A stretch of DNA of 64,000 nt from the NCBI GenBank assembly GCA_964016885.1, contig OZ024743.1, positions 93,744,001-93,808,000 on the forward strand, given 5' to 3'. The position numbers and the translations under genes are program-made. Of the stretch, positions 1 to 64,000 are shown in pieces. A model generated the notes under the pieces. That model was not told where the DNA came from. It saw nothing but the letters and a program-made list of their open reading frames with translations, and made no database searches. This DNA is from Eledone cirrhosa (taxonomy: Eukaryota). Position 1 is the stretch's first letter, and each line of letters opens with the position of its first letter.

Positions 1-299
1 ATTCCTTACTACTTATTTTGCTACGAGGTATCTTATTTTGCAAGGTACTATTTTTCCCCTGAGTTTGTGATTTCAGAGAAAGGTAAGAAATTCTTCATAT
101 TTTGCATCTTTTATATTTTGACTTTGCAGTTTCAATTGTCTATCCACTCAAAATATTACAACAGCTAACAGTGAAATATAGAATTTATAAAAAAAAAAGA
201 AGCTTTTTTGACTGAGCTCAAATGTTTTTTTTTTATTTCAAAAATATATAATTTGAAATAACTTGCTTTTGTTTTGGACTGAAACTTTTTTGTATTTAA

Positions 300-3572: not shown

Positions 3573-4050
3573 TCACACACTATAGTGGTCATGTAGGTGT
3601 CGTGACAAAAACGAGTGCCCAGTCCACACTGTAAAGTGGTCGTTGTAGGCAACATGGCAAAAAGCACCCAGCACACACTGTAAATGTGGTTGGCGTTAGG
3701 AGGGGTATCCAGCCGTAGAAACCAAGCCAAAATTAGTTCTGTGTGAGCGAATCACGGTCCCTCGACCTGATCCCTCACAAACAGACAGCCTGTCCTACCC
3801 ATGCTAGCATGTGGAATATGGATGTTAAACGATGATGATGATATATATATACATATATATAAATATAGTGTAGGAGGTGAATTTTATTGTAGTACAATAA
3901 AGCAATGCAGATATCGGATAAGAAGCACTCTACAATTTGTAGGACTGGAGTATACATAATATATAAGAACAAAAGATGGTTAAAAGAGTATGTTGATTTA
4001 AAACTGAACTATCCACAAGTGTTTTTTAACCTTCATATCATGTCTTCCTG

Positions 4051-4117
4051 TTTTATCTGATGAAAACACAAATATTATTGCATGATGATATTTGTTTTTG
4101 AAATGCGCATAATAAAA
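4051..4117 (+). ncRNA. Minimal type I hammerhead ribozyme
   Basis: TTTTAT-CTGATGA-stem II (AAACACAAATATTA/TGATATTTGTTTTT)-GAAA-TGCGCA (palindromic stem III)-TA-ATAAAA. Confidence 0.8.
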
Positions 4118-4362
4118 TACATGGAACTCTTTTAACCATCTTTTGTTCTTATATATTATATATAAATATATATATATAGATATACATACACACATAAAGA
4201 TTAATAAACAGAGATATCAACTTAGTTTTGACTAAACAAGATGATGGGAAGTTCAATGTATTGTTATAATTATTATCATGCAGATCAAATAACTCTATTA
4301 TTTTTTTTATTACTTTCTGTATTTAAATATTTTAAATAGGTTTTTTAAAAGTATATTGTACA

Positions 4363-4429
4363 AAATAGAAAATTCGATTCAGGGACAGCCTGCTAACACC
4401 AGGCTGTCCCTGAATCGAATTTTCTATTT
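4363..4429. repeat. Perfect hairpin, 30-bp arms and 7-nt loop
   Basis: AAATAGAAAATTCGATTCAGGGACAGCCTG-ctaacac-exact reverse complement. Confidence 0.95.
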
Positions 4430-14699: not shown

Positions 14700-14975
14700 T
14701 ATATTGTTATATTTAGGGAGGGTCATATTGTTATAATATTGTCAGAAATAATAATGGTTTCTTTATTGGCACACTCACTGTTTGGTTTGGATTAGTTTTC
14801 GCTTCTGTGTATTTTATATCCCTATAGTTAATTTATCTGACATTTAATGTTTATCAATGATTGACCAACGATTAAAAATACAGATATAAATATATATATA
14901 TATAGTCTATCAAAGTTCTTTCGTCACACATCAGTGACATCATCAGTGGTACTATTATGTTTCCTCCCATTGTAT
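14700..14975 (+). repeat. ~270-bp direct repeat flanking the Penelope fragment (second copy ~16620-16885)
   Basis: Shared GAGGGTCATA..GTTATAATATTG...GTCTATCAAAGTTCTTTC...GGTACTATTATGTTTCCTCC. Partial inverted copies at ~16905-16959 and ~17260-17400. Confidence 0.9.
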
Positions 14976-15284: not shown

Positions 15285-16195
15285 GTGACACACACATTTA
15301 GACCCTTCCATAAACTAAATGAAAAACTTAATTACATACACAAGGACTCATGCCACCCACCTACAGTTTTTAGAAACTTTGTGAATAATATTGGTACGAG
15401 AATCTCTAACCCTCTCCTCTAATAAAACAACCTTTGACAGAACGGCACCCTACTACAACGCGGTGTTACCTAACAGCAGCTTACTCCCCTGCTAACACCA
15501 ACAGCAATAGGAAAATAAATCATGCTAATAGAAAAGCAATTTAGTTCTCCTCCCCCACCCCCTCTTCTCAGTCAACGTTAAAACTAATGTAGGAAATAAT
15601 TTGTTCACTCTCTTAGATAGACACTTCCCCATAGGTCACAAATACTGCTCCATCTTTAACAGACAGGGTGAAACTAGGATACTCCTGTGCTAAGAATATA
15701 GAGGCCCACATCACCAACAGCCCTAAGAGCAACACCCCACCAGGATGCTCTTGTTGAAAGCATGAAGCTTATCCCCTTCAAAAACAATGCAACACACCCA
15801 CTGTAATTTATGAAGCTGTGTTCACTTCTAACCGTCCAAATCAACAACAAGAGGTTAAATCCTATGTAGGTATAGTGGAGGGCTGGTTTAAGGAATGCTT
15901 CCTGAACCATGAGTCAACCTTTAGATATCCAGACAAACGATTGTCCACGAAACTCACAAGCCACATATGGTCCCTCAAGGACACAGGTGTAGATTACTCC
16001 ATCCACTGGAAACCTATTACTAAGTCTAAGCCATACGCAAGGGGGAATCCGTCTTGTGGGCTATGCATTGAAGAAAGGATCAATATCCTGAGAGGATTAC
16101 ATAATAGTAATTGCCCAAATTCAAGGAATGAACTTTTCTCACGTTGTCTACATGTCTGGAAACACCTATTCCATAATTACAAAGCTCCAGATTGA
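15285..16195 (+). mobile_element. Penelope-like element (Naiad-type) 3' fragment with GIY-YIG endonuclease
   Basis: VIYEAV...YVGI...FLNH...LTSHIWSLK...CGLCIEE...NSRNELFSRCLH, preceded in frame by a decayed CxC-x5-C-x5-C linker (CSC*KHEA[Y]PLQKQC). Confidence 0.85.
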
Positions 16196-17402
16196 CTAAC
16201 ATCAACAATCTATAATAATCTGAATAGCCTGAATAATTTATTTCGGGCATCCACAATTATCTCCCTTACATCGATCTATTGTGCACATGCGTATTTGTAC
16301 AGTTGTTTTATCCTTTTCCATACAACTTCATTTAGACCGTGCTGGGGATCTGAATAAGGTGAAACATTTGTTCTTGGTATGGTGAACTAACCGTTGTGGA
16401 ACTACTTCCACCTAACTCGTCCCATGGACTGAGTGCTCTACTACTACAGATATAACCCTCCAGTGTTCTACTATTATATATATATATATATTAATTAAAA
16501 GTTAATTAGTCCCTAATACTTAAACATCTCAATGAGTGAATAAAATATATAGATAATAAATCACTCATATATATATATTTGTTTTGCAAGGTTTTTGATA
16601 TGAAATCGTGTGTCGAAACAAATATTGTTATACTTGAGGAGGGTCATATAGTTATAATATTGCCAGAAATAATAACAGAACACACTCACTGTTTGGTTTG
16701 GTTTGGTTTTCACTTCTGTATCTTTTATATCTCCATAGTTAATTTATTTGGCAATCAATGTTTATCATTGATTGACCAGCGGTTAAAAAATACAGATATA
16801 AATATATATATATAGTCTATCAAAGTTCTTTCATCACAAATCTGCGACATCATCAGTGGTACTATTATGTTTCCTCCAATTGTATTTCCTCCCGTTGTAT
16901 TTCCAATGGGAGGAAACATAATAGTACCACAGATGTGCGACGAAAGAACTTTGATAGACATCATATATATATTTCAGGAATTCTGGCTTTCACTTAATAA
17001 TACTTGCGAAACAGATTTAAGTCCGTCTGGGTATCAAAGGCTATTGCCCGATATAGGTTTGTTATTTTTATTGATTTATTACTTTAAATCGAGTCAGGCA
17101 AACCATATTGTTTTAAATTAGCATTTTTTCAACCTAGCTAACTTGGTCATTTGCAATTGGAACACATGTATACTTGTATCTGTGTTCATCCCTCTCATAT
17201 ATCCAATTATATTACACGGCTCGGAAAGATTCCCTTCTTTGAGCTATTTAATTGTAAAAGACATTGATTGCCAAATAAATTAACTATGGAGATATAAAAG
17301 ATACAGAAGCGAAAACCAAACCAAACCAAACAGTGAGTGTGTTCTGTTATTATTTCTGGCAATATTATAACTATATTACCCTCCTCAAGTATAACAATAT
17401 AT

Positions 17403-17748
17403 ATCATCATCATCATCATCATCATTTTACGTCCGCTTTTCCCTGCTTGCAAGGGTGGGACGGGAACTGATTCTGGCTTGATTTCTACAGCTAGATGCCC
17501 TTCCTAACACCAACCTCATTTACAGTGAGTGCTGGGTGCTTTTTTGCCGTGGCACCTCCATGACCACTTTGCAGGGGAATGATATGGACCCCAGTCCCTA
17601 TCATCTCATTTCTACAGCTGAGTAAACTGGAGCAATGTGAAATAAAGTGTCTTGCTCAAGGAAACAACACATCACCCGGTCTGAGAATTGAACTCACAAC
17701 CTTTCGATTGCAAGACCAATGCTCTAACCACTAAGCCATGTGCCTCAT
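17403..17748 (-). mobile_element. tRNA-derived SINE, family B, with RTE-LINE 3' tail
   Basis: Near-identical inverse of 52587-52920. Confidence 0.9.
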
Positions 17749-26174: not shown

Positions 26175-26947
26175 ATATGCAGATCTTGGGTACACAAGAG
26201 GTGTAGTGGGATAGCAGGCAAACTAACAGAAAAGGAAAACCTCATATGTAGTGGATGTTCAGGGAAAATTGATAGTAGAAGTGTCAGTGATAGGCACATT
26301 TTTCAAATGCAGGTAAGATCTATAGAGGTGGTTGATAGCTTCCGATACCTAGGTGATCATATTAGCAAGCGAGGAGGATGCTCTGAGGTCATAATATCTA
26401 GAATAAGGACAGGATGGAAGGAGTTTAGGGAGCTGCTTCCTCTGTTGACAACAAAGTGTTTCTCCCTATGAACGAAAGGTCGATTGAATGGTGCCTGTGT
26501 AAGATGCACGATGCTGCATGGTAGTGATACATGGGCAGCAATTGTGGAGTATATGCGTAGCCTGGAGAGAAATGAAGCAAGCATGCTCTGATGGATGTGC
26601 AATGTGAATGTGCGTGAACTACCAAGCGTGAACGAGTTGAGAATGAAACTATGTATAAGAGGAATGAACTGTAGTGTGCAGGAGAGAAGACAGCATTGGT
26701 ATGGCCATGTGATGCACATGGAAGATGACCACTGGGTGAAGAAGTGCCAAGAAATCCCAGTGGAAGGAAGACACAGTAGAGGAAGACCAAAAAAAACATG
26801 GGCGGAGGTGGGGAGAGCTGACCTCAGATCACTGAAGCTCACAGAGAAGATGACAAAGGACTATGACGAATGGAGAGATGCTGTGCTGAAGAGGACCCGC
26901 CCCACCCTTGCAAGCAAGGAAAAGCAGACATTAAATGATGATGATGA
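26175..26947 (+). mobile_element. RTE LINE 3' part with (GAT)n tail
   Basis: ORF 26595-27002 contains WYGHVMHM...RGRPKKTW. Confidence 0.93.
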
Positions 26948-33668: not shown

Positions 33669-33727
<59 letters not shown>

Positions 33728-33770
33728 TAATTCAAAATATTAACAAAATAGATATTCTTGTGATCAAGTA

Positions 33771-33837
33771 TATTTTATTATACATATTTCAGAGGTACTG
33801 AGTTAAGTTCAACAGTACGTCCTCATCAGATAAAATA
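33771..33837 (-). ncRNA. Minimal type I hammerhead ribozyme (left arm)
   Basis: Exact inverse of 34254-34320. Confidence 0.8.
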
Positions 33838-34253
33838 AGATGATGCATGACATACCCTGACATATTAGATGGTTAAGATTTAGTCATGGTAGTGAGTAAT
33901 ATATGACAAAACTCAATATTTAATATTTATATACCTTAATATTGAGAACATGAGAAAAATATATAATACATACAATAGAGAGGGTGTGTGTAATACAGCT
34001 TAAATGAATACATGGCATCAATATAACTTTAAAAAATTTCTTTAACTTCAAATTTTTTTAACAGTTATATTGATGCCATGTATTCATTTAAGCTGTATTA
34101 CACACACCCTCTCTATTGTATGTATTATATATTTTTCTCATGTTCTCAATATTAAGGTATATAAATATTAAATATTGAGTTTTGTCATATATTACTCACT
34201 ACCATGACTAAATCTTAACCATCTACTATGTCAGGGTATGTCATGCATCATCT

Positions 34254-34320
34254 TATTTTATCTGATGAGGACGTACTGTTGAACTTAACTCAGTACCTCT
34301 GAAATATGTATAATAAAATA
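34254..34320 (+). ncRNA. Minimal type I hammerhead ribozyme (right arm)
   Basis: TATTTTAT-CTGATGA-GGACGTACTG/12-nt loop/CAGTACCTCT-GAAA-TATGTA-TA-ATAAAATA. Confidence 0.8.
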
Positions 34321-34605
34321 TAATTGATCACAAGAATATCTATTTTGTTAATATTTTGAATTAATATTAATAACTATTGGTAGAAAACCCGCCACAACTG
34401 TAGAAAACCCGCCAGACAGTCCTATGCGAGCAAGACAACCACTCTTGCCTCAAGTGGGAAAACCCCCGTCCAAACCCATGCAAGCGTGGAACACGGACTC
34501 TAAACCTGATGATGATGATGAACTCTGGAAAACCATTACTGTTGAGTGCTTCCAATCTATTGTAAAACTCATTCTTTGATTCATTGAACCTTGTTTAACT
34601 TTTAA

Positions 34606-48019: not shown

Positions 48020-50127
48020 CTCTAGAGTATATGTGAAATATATTCCCTTAAGTGTCTGGGAAGCTCTGTAGTGGTTGTGGAAACTTTTGTTACCTATGGG
48101 ACCTAATCAGCAGTTGAGGAGGTTGCTCTGAATGTGTAGTAGCCAGAGTAAGAATAGGCTGGAAGAAACTCAGAGATCTAGTACTATAGCTAACAAATAC
48201 AGGATTCCCTTCAGTGTGAAAAGTAGACTGTGTGATGACTGCATGTGGACTGCAATGCTACATGACAGCAAGACATGGGCCTTGATTGCAGAAGATCTTT
48301 GAAGACTGGAATGAAATAAGGCTAATATGCCCTGGTGGATGTGTAATCTTAGTGTGTATGAATATGGCAGTGTAAGTGAACTGAAAGAAAATCTTGGCTT
48401 AAGAGGAATCCAATGTAGTGTGGAAGGAAGGAGACTGCATTGGTATAGACATATTATTCATATGGAAGATAACAGTTGTATAAAGAAGTGCAGAGAAATC
48501 TCAGTGGTTGGGACTCCTGGAAGACATAGGATGAAGTAGTGAAGATCAACCATAGGAAACTGAATCACAAAGGATTGGTGATATACAATACTGAAGAAGA
48601 CTTGCCTACCAGTATAAAAATGTGACCCGATCCATTCACGCCCACCCCCTCCACTACCACTCATTAATTAAAATCATCACAGTACACCCACTCCAAATCC
48701 AACTCTATTCAAGTTCACACCATTCTCCTCATAAATCTTAACATTCCAGAATTCATAACTATTGGGAATCACCACTCTGCCACTCATCAATATCAAATTC
48801 CATCACACTTGTCATATACCTATTACACACTTTCTTATCCCACCTCTATCTGCCAAGCACCCATGGCATTATACTTGTTATTCCCCTATTATTCATCCTC
48901 ACCCCCATCCTGTAGAGAAGGTGCTTCAGTTGAATAACTGACCAACAACCTCCCTAGTGCTGGTGCCATGATAAAACACACCCAATATACTTTGTAAAGT
49001 AGCTTTCAGCTATAGAAAACCTTGCCAAAATGGGTTGAGAGGACTCATCAGTCATGATACAGCAATCACTCTACATGGAGCTGGTTCCACAAAAGAATGC
49101 ATCCAGTACACACAGTGATGTGGTTGGTAATTGGAAGGACATCTAGCTATAGAAAATATGTCAAAGAGTTGAGAAGACTGTTCGGTTGTATCAAGGGCAC
49201 AACAACCTCTCTATTGTTGGTGACACTATAAAATGCATTCAGTAAACTCTTAAAGTTGTTGGTGATAGAAAGAGCATCCAACTAGAGAAAACTGACAAAA
49301 CAAAATGATGAGAGGGCCCTTCAATTGTGTGAAAGACATGACAACCTTTCTAATGCTGGTGCCATGATAAAATGGGATATAAGCAAGATGCAACCCCCAG
49401 GCCATTTGAGAGATCAGTAACTAAAATTAAGTACAGACTCAGTCTGTAACATCTTGTCTAACCCTTGTTAGCAGGCAAAACAGACATTAAATTATGATTA
49501 TATATACATAATCATTATTTTTGCAGTATCGGTAGAGGGTCAGATGCCATGCTTTGACGCATAGAGTTACGGCACTTGCCATTCTGAGTTCAAATCCCGC
49601 CGAGGTTAACTTTGCCTTTCATCCTTACGGCGTTGATAAAATAAAGTACCAGTAATACACTGGGTAATTGCTGGCCTTGTGCCGAAAGTAGAAACAATTA
49701 TTTTTGTATCTATCCTTTGTGATCCTGTCTCTATTTTGTATTCCTGAAGAAGGGCTAAAGCTGATACGTTGAACTTTCTTTCCCGCATTCCATATGAAGC
49801 ATGAGATTAATAAGACTTTTTGTACCTCTGTTTTGTCATTTCCTTGAACTATATATATATATATCATCCTCATCATCCTTGTCATTGTAACGTCCGCTTT
49901 CCCTGCTAGCAAGGGTTGGACATATCCATATAGATCAAGTCAGTACTGAAGTGGAGCCGCTGATCTCCCAGGCAGGCCAGGGACCTGTGCACTTATGTAT
50001 GGTCTCACATTACATCAAGTGCTCAGGAGAGGTTGTCATACATTTGACACAACTGAGGGTCTTCCCAACCCTTTGTTTGGCAAGATTTCTATGGCTAGAT
50101 GCCCTTCCTATCACCAACCACTTTAAA

Positions 50128-55617: not shown

Positions 55618-58600
55618 TGTGTCTGTATAGATATGTGATATGTATGTGTATGTATAGATATGTGATATATAGTGTGTGCGTGTGTGTGTGTATGTATAGA
55701 TATATATAGTGTGTGTATGTATAGATATAGTGTGTGTGTATGTATAGATATATATAGTGTCTGTATGTATAGATATAGTGTGTGTGTATGTATAGATATA
55801 TATAGTGTGTGTGTGTGTATGTATAGATATATATAGTGTGTGTGTGTGTATGTATAGATATATAGTGTGTGCGTGTGTATGTATATATATATAGTGTGTG
55901 TGAATGTATAGATATTGTGTGAATGTATAGATATAGTGTGTGTATGTATAGATATAGTGTGTGTATCTAGAGATATAGTGTGTGTGTATGTATAGATATA
56001 GTGTGTGTGTATGTATAGATATAGTGTGTGTGTATCTAGAGATATAGTGTGTGTGTATGTATAGATATAGTGTGTGTGTGTGTATGTATAGATATATATA
56101 TAGTGTGTGTGTATGTATAGATATGTATAGATATATATAGTTTGTGTGTATGGATAGATATATATAGCGTGTGTATGGATAGATATATATAGCGTGTGTA
56201 TGGATAGATATATATAGCGTGTGTATGGATAGATATATATAGCGTGTGTATGGATAGATATATATAGCGTGTGTATGGATAGATATATATAGCGTGTGTA
56301 TGTATAGATATATATAGTGTGCGTATGTATAGATATATATAGTGTGCGTATGTATAGATATATATAGTGTGCGTATGTATAGATATATATAGTGTGCGTA
56401 TGTATAGATATATATAGCGTGTGTATGTATAGATATATATAGTGTGTGTGTGTGTATGTATAGATATATATAGTGTGTGTGTGTATGTATAGATATATAT
56501 AGTGTGTGTGTGTATGTATAGATATATATAGTGTGTGTGTGTATGTATAGATATATATAGTGTGTGTGTGTGTGTGTATGTATAGATATATATAGTGTGT
56601 GTGTGTGTGTGTATGTATAGATATATATAGTGTGTGTGTATGTATAGATATATATAGTGTGTATGTATAGATGTATAGTGTGTGTGTATGTATAGATAAA
56701 TGTATAGTGTGTGTGTATGTATAGATGTATAGTGTGTGTGTATGTATAGATAAATGTATAGTGTGTGTGTATGTATAGATAGATGTATAGTGTGTGTATG
56801 TATAGATATATATATAGTGTGTGTGTTTGTGTATGTATAGATATGTGATATGTATATATATATATAGTGTATGTATATATATATATATAGTGTATGTATA
56901 TATATATATAGTGTATGTATATATATAGTGTATGTATATATATATATAGTGTATGTATATATATATATAGTGTATGTATATATATATATAGTGTATGTAT
57001 ATATATATATAGTGTATGTATATATATATATAGTGTATGTATATATATATATATGTGTATGTATATATATATATATATATAGTGTATGTATATATATATA
57101 TATATAGTGTATGTATATATATATATATATAGTGTATGTATATATATATATATATAGTGTATGTATATATATATATATAGTGTATGTATATATATATAGT
57201 GTATGTATATATATATATATATAGTGTATGTATATATATATATATAGTGTATGTGTATATATATATATATAGTGTATGTGTATATATATATATATAGTGT
57301 ATGTATATATATATATATAGTGTATGTATATATATAGTGTATGTATATATATAGTGTATGTATATATATAGTGTATGTGTATATATAGATATATATATAG
57401 TGTATGTATATATATAGTGTATGTATGTATATATATAGTGTATGTATGTATATATATATAGTGTATGTATGTATATATATATAGTGTATGTATGTATATA
57501 TATATAGTGTATGTATATATATATATATATAGTGTATGTATATATATATATATATAGTGTATGTATATATATATATATATAGTGTATGTATATATATATA
57601 TATATAGTGTATGTATGTATATATATATATAGTGTATGTATGTATATATAGAGTGTATGTGTATATATATATATATATATACTCTTTTACTCTTTTACCT
57701 GTTTCAGCCATCCGGCTGAGGCCATGCTGGGGCACATAGTGTATATTTATATATAAAGTATGTATATATATATATAGTATGTATGTATGTATATATATAT
57801 ATAGTGTGTGTATATATATAGTGTGTATGTATGTGTGTGTATATATATAGTGTGTATGTATGTATATGTATATATAGTGTGTATGTATGTATATGTATAT
57901 ATAGTGTGTATGTATGTATATGTATATATAGTGTGTATGTATATGTATATATAGTGTGTATGTATATGTATATATAGTGTGTATGTATATGTATATATAG
58001 TGTGTATGTATATGTATATATAGTGTGTATGTATATGTATATATAGTGTGTATGTATATGTATATATAGTGTGTATGTATATGTATATATAGTGTGTATG
58101 TATATGTATATATAGTGTGTATGTATATGTATATATAGTGTGTATGTATATGTATATATAGTGTGTATGTATATGTATATATAGTGTGTATGTATATGTA
58201 TATATATAGTGTATGTATATGTATATATAGTGTATGTATATGTATATATAGTGTATGTATATGTATATATAGTGTATGTATATGTATATATAGTGTATGT
58301 ATATGTATATATAGTGTATGTATATGTATATATAGTGTATGTATATGTATATATAGTGTATGTATATGTATATATAGTGTATGTATATGTATATATAGTG
58401 TATGTATATATATAGTATGTATATATATAGTATATGAATATATATATAGTATATGTATATATATAGTATATGTATATATATATATATATAGTATATATAT
58501 ATATATAGTATATGTATATATATATAGTATATATATATATATATAGTATATGTATATGTATATATATATATAGTATATGTATATATATATAGTATATGTA

Positions 58601-58839
58601 TATAGTATATGTATATATATATAGTATATGTATATATATATAGTATATGTATATATAGTATATGTATATATATATAGTATATGTATATATATATAGTATA
58701 TATATATAGTATATGTATATGTATGTATGTATATGTATATATATATATATATATAGTATATGTATATATATGTATATATATGTATATGTATATGTATATA
58801 TATATATATATAGTATATGTATATATATGTATATATATG

Positions 58840-58870
<31 letters not shown>

Positions 58871-58889
58871 AGTATATGTATATATATGT

Positions 58890-58923
<34 letters not shown>

Positions 58924-61900
58924 AGTATATGTATATGTATATATATATATGTATATGTATATATATATATGTATATGTATATATGTATATATATATATGT
59001 ATATGTATATATATATATGTATATGTATATATGTATATATATATATGTATATGTATATATATGTATAGTATATGTATATGTATATATATATATAGTATAT
59101 GTATATATATATATAGTATATGTATATGTATATATATATATAGTATATGTATATATATATATAGTATATGTATATATATATATAGTATATGTATATGTAT
59201 ATATATATATAGTATATGTATATGTATATATATATATAGTATATGTATATGTATATATATATATAGTATATGTATATGTATATATATATATAGTATATGT
59301 ATATGTATATATATGTATATGTATATGTATATATATATATAGTATATGTATATGTATATATATATATAGTATATGTATATGTATATATATATAGTATATG
59401 TATATATATATAGTATATGTATATATATATAGTATATGTATATATATATAGTATATGTATATAGTATATGTATGTATATATGTATATGTATGTATATGTA
59501 TATATATATATAGTATATGTATATATATATAGTATATGTATATATATATAGTATATGTATATATGTATATGTATATAGTATATGTATATATATATATAGT
59601 ATATATATAGTATATGTGTATATATATATAGTATATATATATAGTATATGTATATATATATAGTATATGTATATATATATAGTATATGTATATATATATA
59701 GTATATGTATATATATATATAGTATATGTATATATATATATATAGTATATGTATATGTATATATATATATAGTATATGTATATGTATATATATATAGTAT
59801 ATGTATATATATATATAGTATATGTATATGTATATATATATATAGTATATGTATATGTATATATATATAGTATATGTATATATATATATAGTATATGTAT
59901 ATGTATATATATATAGTATATGTATATATATATATAGTATATGTATATGTATATATATATAGTATATGTATATATATATATAGTATATGTATATGTATAT
60001 ATATATATAGTATATGTATATGTATATATATATAGTATATGTATATATATATATAGTATATGTATATGTATATATATATATAGTATATGTATATGTATAT
60101 ATATATATAGTATATGTATATGTATATATATATATAGTATATGTATATATATATATAGTATATGTATATATATATATAGTATATGTATATATATATATAG
60201 TATATATATATATATATAGTATATATATATATATAGTATATATATATATATAGTATATATATATATATATAGTATATATATATATATAGTATATATATAT
60301 ATATAGTATATATATATATAGTATATGTATATATATATATAGTATATGTATATATATATATAGTGTATGTATATATATAGTATATGTATGTATATATATA
60401 GTATATGTATGTATATATATAGTATATGTATGTATATATATAGTATATGTATGTATATATATAGTATATGTATGTATATATATAGTATATGTATGTATAT
60501 ATATAGTATATGTATGTATATATATAGTATATGTATGTATATATATAGTATATGTATGTATATATATAGTATATGTATGTATATATAGTATATGTATGTA
60601 TATATATAGTATATGTATGTATGTATATATATAGTATATGTATGTATGTATATATAGTATATGTATGTATGTATATATATAGTATATGTATATATATATA
60701 TAGTATATGTATATATATATATAGTATATGTATATATATATTTATAGTATATGTATATATATATATATAGTATATGTATATATATATATATAGTATATGT
60801 ATATATATATATATAGTATATGTATATATATATATATAGTATATGTATATATATATATAGTATATGTATATATATATATAGTATATGTATATATATATAT
60901 AGTATATGTATATATATATATAGTATATGTATATATATATATAGTATATGTATATATATATAGTATATGTATATATATATAGTATGTATATATATATAGT
61001 ATATATATATATATAGTATATATATATATAGTATATGTATATATATATAGTATATGTATATATATATTGTATATATATATATAGTATATGTATATATATA
61101 TAGTGTATATATATATAGTATATATATATATATATATATATAGTATATATATATATATATATAGTATATATATATATATATAGTATATATATATATATAT
61201 AGTATATATATATATATATAGTATATATATATATATATAGTATATATATATATATATAGTATATATATATATATATAGTATATATATATATATAGTATAT
61301 ATATATATATATAGTATATATATATATATATAGTATATATATATATATATAGTATATATATATATATAGTATATGTATATATATATATAGTATATGTATA
61401 TATATATATAGTATATGTATATATATATATAGTATATATATATATATAGTATATGTATATATATATAGTATATGTATATATATATATAGTATATGTATAT
61501 ATATATATATAGTATATGTATATATATATATATAGTATATGTATATATATATATATAGTATATGTATATATATATATATAGTATATGTATATATATATAT
61601 ATAGTATATGTATATATATATATATAGTATATGTATATATATATATATAGTATATGTATATATATATATATAGTATATGTATATATATATATATAGTATA
61701 TGTATATATATATATATAGTATATGTATATATATATATATAGTATATGTGTATATATATATATAGTATATGTGTATATATATATATAGTATATGTGTATA
61801 TATATATATAGTATATGTATATATATATATAGTATATGTATATATATATATATAGTATATGTATATATATATATATAGTATATGTATATATATATATATA

Positions 61901-62549
61901 GTATATGTATATATATATATATATATAGTATATGTATATATATATATATAGTATATGTATATATATATATATAGTATATGTATATATATATATATAGTAT
62001 ATGTATGTATATATATATAGTATATGTATGTATATATATATAGTATATGTATGTATATATATATAGTATATGTATATATATATAGTATATGTATATATAG
62101 AGTATATGTATATATAGAGTATATGTATATATAGAGTATATGTATATATAGAGTATATGTATATATAGAGTATATGTATATATAGAGTATATGTATATAT
62201 ATGTAAGTATATATATATATATATATATATATGTAAGTATATATATATATATATGTATGTATGTATGTATGTATATATGTATGTATGTATGTATGTATAT
62301 ATGTATGTATGTATGTATATATATATGTATGTATGTATGTATATATATATGTATGTATGTATGTATATGTATGTATGTATGTATGTATATATATATATGT
62401 ATGTATGTATATATATATATGTATGTATGTATATATGTATATATATATATATGTATGTATGTATATATGTATATATATATATATGTATATATGTATATAT
62501 ATATATATGTATGTATGTATATATGTATATATATATATATGTATGTATG

Positions 62550-62583
<34 letters not shown>

Positions 62584-62897
62584 TATATATATGTATGTAT
62601 GTATGTATATATATATGTATGTATGTATGTATGTATATATATATGTATGTATGTATATATGTATATATATATATATGTATGTATATATGTATATATATAT
62701 ATATGTATGTATGTATATATGTATATATATATATATGTATGTATGTATATATGTATATATATATATATGTATGTATGTATATATGTATATATGTATATAT
62801 GTATATATATATATATGTATGTATGTATATATGTATATATATATATATGTATGTATGTATATATGTATATATATATATATGTATGTATGTATATATG

Positions 62898-62928
<31 letters not shown>

Positions 62929-62987
62929 GTATGTATGTATATATATATATATGTATGTATGTATATATGTATATATATGTATATATG

Positions 62988-63022
<35 letters not shown>

Positions 63023-63027
63023 ATATG

Positions 63028-63100
<73 letters not shown>

Positions 63101-63105
63101 ATATG

Positions 63106-63138
<33 letters not shown>

Positions 63139-63263
63139 ATATGTATATATATATATATGTATGTATGTATATATGTATATATATATATATGTATGTATGT
63201 ATATATGTATATATATATATATGTATGTATGTATATATGTATATATATATATATGTATGTATG

Positions 63264-63297
<34 letters not shown>

Positions 63298-63891
63298 TAT
63301 ATATATGTATGTATGTATATATGTATATATATATATATGTATGTATGTATATATGTATATATATATATATGTATGTATGTATATATGTATATATATATAT
63401 ATGTATGTATGTATATATGTATATATATATATATGTATGTATGTATATATGTATATATATATATATGTATGTATGTATATATGTATATATATATATATGT
63501 ATGTATGTATATATGTATATATATATATATGTATGTATGTATATATGTATATATATATATATGTATGTATGTATATATGTATATATATATATATGTATGT
63601 ATGTATATATGTATATATATATATATGTATGTATGTATATATGTATATATATATATATGTATGTATGTATATATGTATATATATATATATGTATGTATGT
63701 ATATATGTATATATATATATATGTATGTATGTATATATGTATATATATATATATGTATGTATGTATATATGTATATATATATATATGTATGTATGTATAT
63801 ATGTATATATATATATATGTATATATGTATATATATATATATGTATGTATGTATATATGTATATATATATATATGTATGTATGTATATATG

Positions 63892-63956
<65 letters not shown>

Positions 63957-64000
63957 ATATGTATATATATATATAATATATGTATGTATGTATATATGTA
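55484..64000. repeat. Giant compound (TA)/(TG)/(AG) microsatellite-minisatellite in transportin intron 2
   Basis: >8 kb of drifting units such as GTATGTATAGATATATATAGTGT, AGTATATGTATATATATAT and GTATGTATGTATATAT; runs off the window end. Confidence 0.97.

What the first reader, a model, noticed from the sequence alone, without database searches (positions are those of the whole stretch)
3958..4157. Second, unrelated hammerhead framed by inverted repeats
Seen: a hammerhead at 4051-4117 with a perfect TGCGCA stem III and the same TTTTAT/ATAAAA stem I and AUA site as the 34 kb motif, but a different, still base-paired stem II. It lies between 32-bp inverted repeats (3958-3989 and 4126-4157) next to (TA)n. 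Inference: different sequence with the same structure acts as natural covariation evidence and suggests a group of tiny ribozyme-bearing Penelope-derived elements.
Basis: partly seen in the sequence, partly recalled or inferred. Interest (0 to 1): 0.72.

Follow-up and report, generated by a model that had tools for sequence, protein, structure and literature searches.

The report
Penelope retrotransposon stub with hammerhead
This is a short, likely dead, back-to-back end-piece of a very abundant Penelope-like jumping gene that carries a predicted self-cutting RNA (hammerhead) motif; it is a known kind of debris, but the fixed start and end points of its copies likely record how the element's RNA is copied into DNA.

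Summary
The hammerhead motif and inverted repeats are real (3 descriptor hits in the window, 0 in 200 shuffles; 35,209 exact hits genome-wide, 0 for the reversed control). The insertion is 3870-4159, not 3958-4157: a forward end-repeat (pLTR) stub joined head to head to an inverted stub with an ~86-nt tail; the 34-bp inverted repeat is just where the two stubs overlap. Longer copies run into an intact 798-aa RT + endonuclease ORF with the published Hydra-clade Penelope motifs. The 34 kb hammerhead is not unrelated: it belongs to a sister family (ORF pieces 45-59% identical; same 8-bp stem I; stem II keeps 3 bp + a C.Y mismatch in 60/60 variants). Covariation is real, but comes from common descent. 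The stubs are likely insertion by-products, not a tiny self-propagating element. Copies end at two fixed sites (52/55), used one per arm in 22/28 pairs, and 23/55 start at one base; 0/30 ORF-leading copies start there. Cleavage was not tested. Known architecture (Craig 2021, Cervera 2014, Frangieh 2024). This scan has reported the same reading many times on other DNA of this genome.

The parts
3870..3989 (-). Inverted, 5'-truncated arm: 3' end of the pLTR plus tail (reference +75..+195, counted from the first base of the hammerhead)
   Evidence: 97% identical over 124 nt to the pLTR/5'UTR of ORF-bearing copy L074
3870..3955 (-). ~86-nt 'tail' between the two fixed 3' end sites; in ORF-bearing copies it is the leader that follows the 5' pLTR
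   Evidence: L064/L065/L074 run from tail into 5'UTR and ATG; 212 exact tail-to-leader junctions genome-wide
3925..3951 (-). Small hairpin (ACTC...GAGTGC) just behind end site 1; a similar motif lies behind end site 2 in full-length copies
   Evidence: fold; motif shared by three families; role inferred
3989..4159 (+). Forward pLTR stub (reference -63..+108), starting at the family's fixed 5' point
   Evidence: 95% identical over 177 nt to L074; fixed start
3956..3989 (.). Left copy of the 34-bp perfect inverted repeat (overlap of the two arms)
4126..4159 (.). Right copy of the 34-bp perfect inverted repeat
4049..4119 (+). Predicted type I hammerhead: 8-bp stem I (4049-4056/4112-4119), core CUGAUGA 4057-4063, stem II 4064-4079/4084-4099 with C.U mismatch at pair 4, GAAA 4100-4103, palindrome AUGCGCAU 4103-4110, predicted cut after A4111
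   Evidence: activity untested
3857..3867 (+). Candidate target-site duplication, left (interrupted TA tract)
   Evidence: same 11-14 nt on both flanks; weak: 4/16 same-locus vs 23/240 cross-locus matches
4160..4170 (+). Candidate target-site duplication, right
   Evidence: weak
33714..34377 (.). Sister-family fold-back (323-nt arms) with hammerheads at 33773-33835 (-) and 34256-34318 (+)
   Evidence: its family leads into a related ORF in L100

Best explanation
The stretch 3870-4159 is a two-armed, head-to-head stub of the end repeat (pLTR) of a Hydra-clade Penelope-like retroelement in a TA tract, carrying that element's predicted type I hammerhead, and it likely arose when the element's reverse transcriptase copied the first 170-260 nt of one RNA twice. 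Shown: family membership, the link to an intact RT-endonuclease ORF, two fixed 3' end sites (+108..113 and +195), one fixed 5' point (-64), conserved and covarying hammerhead structure shared with sister families. Inferred: the endonuclease nicks both strands of (TA)n; each nick primes internal reverse transcription, one at each end site (each ~7-9 nt before a small hairpin); the cDNAs run to the RNA's 5' end (likely a transcription start at -64) or stop earlier, and anneal by 1-4 nt microhomology. Inferred: the hammerhead works as a dimer through its 8-nt palindrome and was not cut in the RNA that gave this copy, since the stub spans the cut site.
For: 40 scored of 183 candidates match at 89-100%; 19,808 exact family-A hammerhead heads. 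L032: (TA)n-inverted tailed arm-ORF-3'UTR-pLTR-(TA)n. L074: intact 798-aa ORF between two hammerhead pLTRs with RWIA, DKT, YRDD, CxCx5C, CxxC, CxH, the Hydra diagnostics of Craig 2021; 37 homologues at E<=6.5e-64 keep them; shares motifs by eye with Hydra-1_Obim. 3' ends: 28 site 1, 24 site 2, 3 other of 55 arms; 22 of 28 paired loci use one site per arm; 23 of 55 arms start at -64+-3. Genome-wide only 5,653 of 13,471 copies continue 6 nt upstream of that point. Contig joints from many left-arm points to 3989 (run X1 may be the source sample). Literature: inverted truncated copy + one-sided tail (PMC8557442, PMC3846280), tail = span between two RT starts, both strands nicked and extended, uncut RNA is the main substrate (PMC11167929), dimeric HHRs (PMC4209133).
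Against: No RNA data: start site, expression and cleavage untested. Pfam and PDB gave no hit for the ORF, so RT/EN identity rests on motifs and homologues (one has precomputed PF00078, not reproduced). No tree was built. 6 of 28 paired loci break the one-site-per-arm rule. 0 of 30 ORF-leading copies start at -64, which a simple 'one transcript from -64' model does not predict. Pair 10.1-11.1 is A-U, not the usual G-C, and the read-through fold-back masks stem I. The site-2 hairpin has a mismatch in this family.
Confidence: 0.85

Rival explanations
1. The stub is a non-autonomous mini-element (retrozyme- or SINE-like) transcribed from its own promoter and copied in trans.
For: Stubs outnumber leader-to-ORF copies about 90-fold (19,808 vs 212 exact patterns); fixed 5' end; L002 has the same junction as the window; pLTRs can act in trans (PMC3846280 passage).
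Against: Inverted-arm starts vary widely (+46 to +165, -65 to -11); repeated junctions sit at GT/GTAT microhomologies and carry different subfamily variants in both arms; no tandem monomer arrays as in retrozymes were seen in the loci read; stubs lack the sequence behind site 2.
Confidence: 0.08
2. The inverted arm comes from fold-back/self-priming of a single cDNA or antisense template, and -64 is an RT stall site, not the RNA start.
For: Self-priming was proposed for Penelope palindromes (PMC3846280 discussion passage); 0/30 ORF-leading copies end at -64.
Against: The two arms end at different fixed sites (22/28), including arms longer than their partner could template; here the left arm holds 86 nt of tail absent from the right arm and lacks the junction palindrome; 16 ORF-leading and 23 other arms pass -64 without stopping.
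Confidence: 0.12
3. It is a MITE (DNA transposon) with terminal inverted repeats and TA target, and the hammerhead is chance.
For: Short, AT-rich, inverted repeats, TA flanks.
Against: Repeat length is not fixed, is not terminal (86 nt lie outside), copies run into an RT ORF, and the motif has 0 chance hits.
Confidence: 0.01

Closest known systems
Hydra clade of C-terminal EN+ Penelope-like elements, incl. Hydra-1_Obim (Craig et al. 2021, PMC8557442; read: passages, Hydra section passages, supplement File S1/S2 part 2 and search hits)
   Same: RW[K/I/R], DKT, CxCx5C linker, CxxC and CxH around E/N, (TA)n targets, hammerhead in pLTR, inverted truncated copy and one-sided tail.
   Different: Unit about 3.9 kb (published mostly <3 kb); tail ~86 nt (30-40 typical); hammerhead has 8-bp U-A stem I, long stem II with a conserved C.Y mismatch, A-U/G.U at 10.1-11.1 and an 8-nt palindrome, unlike the 20 Hydra rows of File S2; this family's strings were not found in that supplement.
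Minimal/dimeric type I hammerheads of metazoan PLEs (Cervera & de la Pena 2014, PMC4209133; read: parts 1-2 of 4)
   Same: In pLTRs, palindromic stem III, long stem II, many families per genome, opposite-strand pairs 100-700 bp apart.
   Different: No extra nucleotide between 9 and 10.1, no conserved G10.1-C11.1; at least 35,209 motifs versus the ~9,000 they cite for Xenopus tropicalis (different descriptors).
PAc Poseidon in vitro mechanism (Frangieh et al. 2024, PMC11167929; read: parts 1-2 of 4)
   Same: Two internal RT starts downstream of the hammerhead define the tail; AT-rich nicks on both strands; uncut RNA inserted.
   Different: Other clade; they saw no strand difference in start site, while here each insertion mostly uses one site per arm; here the starts lie in a non-coding leader, not in the ORF.
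Animal non-LTR retrozymes (bioRxiv 10.64898/2026.07.22.740005; read: part 1 of 5)
   Same: Non-coding, type I hammerhead, PLE-derived.
   Different: Retrozymes are head-to-tail tandem repeats; this is a head-to-head two-arm stub.

Membership tests
Hydra-clade PLE | Single ORF, RT with C-terminal GIY-YIG-type EN | tested here: met
   798-aa ORF, YRDD and YFGST motifs, 37 homologues (47, 51); no Pfam/PDB hit (26, 43, 44)
Hydra-clade PLE | RWK-like motif, DKT, CxCx5C linker, CxxC/CxH | tested here: met
   RWIA 37, DKT 123, CNCPVKNKC 657, CNLC 757, CLH 785
Hydra-clade PLE | Insertion in (TA)n | tested here: met
   flanks
Hydra-clade PLE | Phylogenetic placement of RT | not tested
   no tree; only motif likeness by eye to Hydra-1_Obim
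EN+ PLE insertion | Partial-tandem pLTRs, adjacent inverted truncated copy, one-sided tail | tested here: met
   L065, L074 (tandem), L032 and window (inverted, tail)
Type I hammerhead | CUGANGA/GAAA core, NUH site, stems I-III with covariation | tested here: met
   98.8% cells paired, 7 pairs change on both sides, slid controls 34-61%; stem II 293/300; stem I partly fixed by the search pattern
Type I hammerhead | G10.1-C11.1 closing pair | tested here: not met
   A-U 35, G.U 24, G-C 1 of 60
Type I hammerhead | Self-cleavage | not testable with these tools
   needs assay
Non-LTR retrozyme | Head-to-tail tandem units each with a hammerhead | tested here: not met
   window and loci show head-to-head arms or ORF-flanking pLTRs
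MITE | Fixed terminal inverted repeats | tested here: not met
   repeat length varies, 86 nt lie outside it

The most novel reading that the evidence does not exclude
The ~20,000 stubs are a fossil record of the Penelope replication cycle in vivo: a dimeric RT primes both target strands at two hairpin-marked sites on one RNA that begins at -64, and the hammerhead cuts only RNAs that hold two ribozyme copies, so one-ribozyme stubs keep the uncut -64 end (23/55) while ORF-bearing copies never start there (0/30) and instead pile up at or just after the cut site (8/30 at +61..+102, one exact). The invariant C.Y mismatch in stem II would mark a new tertiary or protein contact.
Probability: 0.3. Interest if true: 0.62.

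Novelty: new member of a known kind. Interest (0 to 1): 0.3.

Why it matters
As an object it is ordinary retroelement debris. Its value is as a data set: what hammerheads do in Penelope elements and how the inverted/tail structures form are open questions (PMC8557442, PMC11167929), and this family offers an intact ORF, exact predicted RT start sites, a predicted RNA start and a hammerhead variant with natural covariation, so these can be tested directly.

Tried and rejected
Rfam at gathering threshold found no hammerhead in the window. Pfam and PDB sequence search did not name the ORF. RNA runs: no RNA holder listed; no inference drawn. Look-up of earlier findings by sequence was blank. GTATGT as a splice donor: considered, dropped for this family because many copies read ATATGT. 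Neptune clade: first guess, dropped for Hydra on motifs. MITE and retrozyme rejected (membership table). TSD test inconclusive: 4/16 vs 23/240 (14 of 30 loci left out for lacking both ends). The best-hit loci L001-L030 are biased to the query's own start, so 5'-end counts use L140-L179 instead. Paper searches showed no paper on this family; subscription journals and Repbase/Dfam were not searchable, so it may already be catalogued.

Full report
Observation. The window reads TTTTAT-CTGATGA-36 nt-GAAA-TGCGCA-TA-ATAAAA at 4051-4117. The 36-nt stem II is a strong hairpin (z -4.4), though the whole motif is not more stable than shuffles (z -0.8). A type I descriptor gives 3 hits in the window and none in 200 shuffles. 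Rfam does not detect it. The perfect inverted repeat is 34 bp, 3956-3989 / 4126-4159.

What the element is. A DNA search scored 40 of 183 candidates, at 89-100% identity on many contigs; 19,808 exact heads of this hammerhead family exist. Several copies continue upstream into a 3'UTR and an ORF. L032 shows (TA)n, an inverted tailed arm, a truncated RT-EN ORF, 3'UTR, hammerhead pLTR, (TA)n. L065 and L074 are partial tandems: pLTR with hammerhead, tail, leader, ATG, ORF, second pLTR; L074 has an open 798-aa frame. It carries RWIA, DKT, YRDD, CxCx5C, YFGST, CxxC and CxH, the features Craig et al. give for the Hydra clade (PMC8557442, passages), conserved in the 14 of 37 homologues I aligned and visible by eye in Hydra-1_Obim. 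Pfam and PDB gave no name and no tree was built. The only named homologue is from an argonaut, so the host is likely an octopod (inference).

Anatomy of this copy. Against L074, 3989-4159 is the forward pLTR (-63..+108, 95%) and 3870-3989 is an inverted piece (+75..+195, 97%). The 'framing' repeat is the overlap of these arms, and 86 nt of tail lie outside it. The arms meet at a 1-2 nt GT overlap. A 11-14 nt interrupted TA tract on both flanks may be a target duplication, but the test is weak (4/16 vs 23/240). This layout, an inverted truncated copy with a one-sided tail, is the textbook PLE insertion (PMC8557442; PMC3846280 passages), and opposite-strand hammerhead pairs were noted in PMC4209133.

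Related, not unrelated. The 34 kb family (L100) and a third family (L083) lead into ORFs 45-60% identical in pieces to this one and align through the leader. Among 60 distinct motifs collected without any stem II or III constraint, stem II pairs 1-3 and 5-6 are paired in 293/300 cells (slid controls 50-69%), and pair 4 is unpaired in 60/60, nearly always C.C or C.U. On 28 hand-picked diverse rows, 98.8% of cells pair and 7 pairs change on both sides; relatedness inflates such counts and stem I was partly fixed by the pattern. Stem III is an 8-nt palindrome that covaries (AUGCGCAU, AUAUAUAU, AUAUGUAU); closing it in a monomer costs energy while the dimer is stable, as expected for dimeric PLE hammerheads (PMC4209133). 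The usual G10.1-C11.1 pair is present in 1/60, and the 20 Hydra rows in File S2 of PMC8557442 look different, so this is a structural variant whose activity is untested.

How it likely formed. In 55 arms from 40 stretches picked by position from the list, 28 end at site 1, 24 at site 2, 3 elsewhere; 23 start at -64+-3, 23 further upstream, 9 inside. By locus, 22 of 28 pairs use one site per arm (17/23 junction-adjacent, 5/5 longer). Genome-wide 5,653 of 13,471 copies continue 6 nt past the fixed start (mutation lowers this figure somewhat). Contigs of run X1 show many left-arm points joined to 3989 (possibly the source sample). Each end site lies about 7-9 nt before a small RCTC...GAGYRC hairpin motif in three families (lead from earlier notes; imperfect at site 2 here). 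Frangieh et al. showed for another clade that the tail is the span between two internal RT starts, that both strands are nicked and extended, and that uncut RNA is the main substrate. I infer twin internal priming near the 5' end of an RNA starting at -64. Against a simple version: of 30 copies whose tail runs on into the leader (first 30 of 212), none starts at -64; 13 run beyond -300, and 8 start at +61..+102, one exactly at the predicted cut. That window was chosen after looking, some loci are two halves of one insertion, and a circular or read-through template would also explain the lack of -64 ends.

Verdict. Real, correctly linked to Penelope elements, but a new member of a known kind: a stub of a Hydra-clade PLE. 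Four paper searches showed no paper on this family; Repbase/Dfam and bioRxiv supplements could not be checked. The scan's own notes give the same reading for many other loci of this genome; I had the Hydra/pLTR/tail/fixed-start reading before opening them, and took the twin-hairpin and cut-site leads from them.

Noticed in passing
window 14903-14946 (-), 16813-16856 (-), 15743-16174 (+): A different hammerhead-like motif (CTGATGAT GTCAC..GTGAC GAAAGAACTTT) twice, near a degenerate PLE-type endonuclease remnant (~31% to the L074 ORF): probably another Penelope family.
   Followed up: partly
window 48988-49051 (-) and 26886-26933 (+): Further core-like matches (CTGANGA...GAAA) that fail the stem I/II filter; probably chance or decayed.
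   Followed up: no
window 4363-4429: Perfect 30-bp hairpin with 7-nt loop.
   Followed up: no
window ~56000-64000: Long (TA)/(GTAT)-type microsatellite array with no C on the + strand (GC skew 1.0).
   Followed up: no
window 17681-17738 (-): Weak tRNA match, likely the head of a tRNA-derived SINE (similar sequence in L003, L056 flanks).
   Followed up: no
window ~34378-34505: The tail of the 34 kb element is interrupted by a ~125-nt insertion of another repeat.
   Followed up: no
L004 563-624 and 1815-1875; L046/L047; L082: Stubs of different sister families often sit within a few hundred bases of each other, consistent with repeated insertion into the same TA tracts.
   Followed up: no
L074 ORF residues ~590-655: Asparagine/serine/threonine-rich insert between RT thumb and EN linker, absent from the aligned homologues; recalls the N-rich inserts of rotifer Penelopes (PMC3846280 passage).
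   Followed up: no
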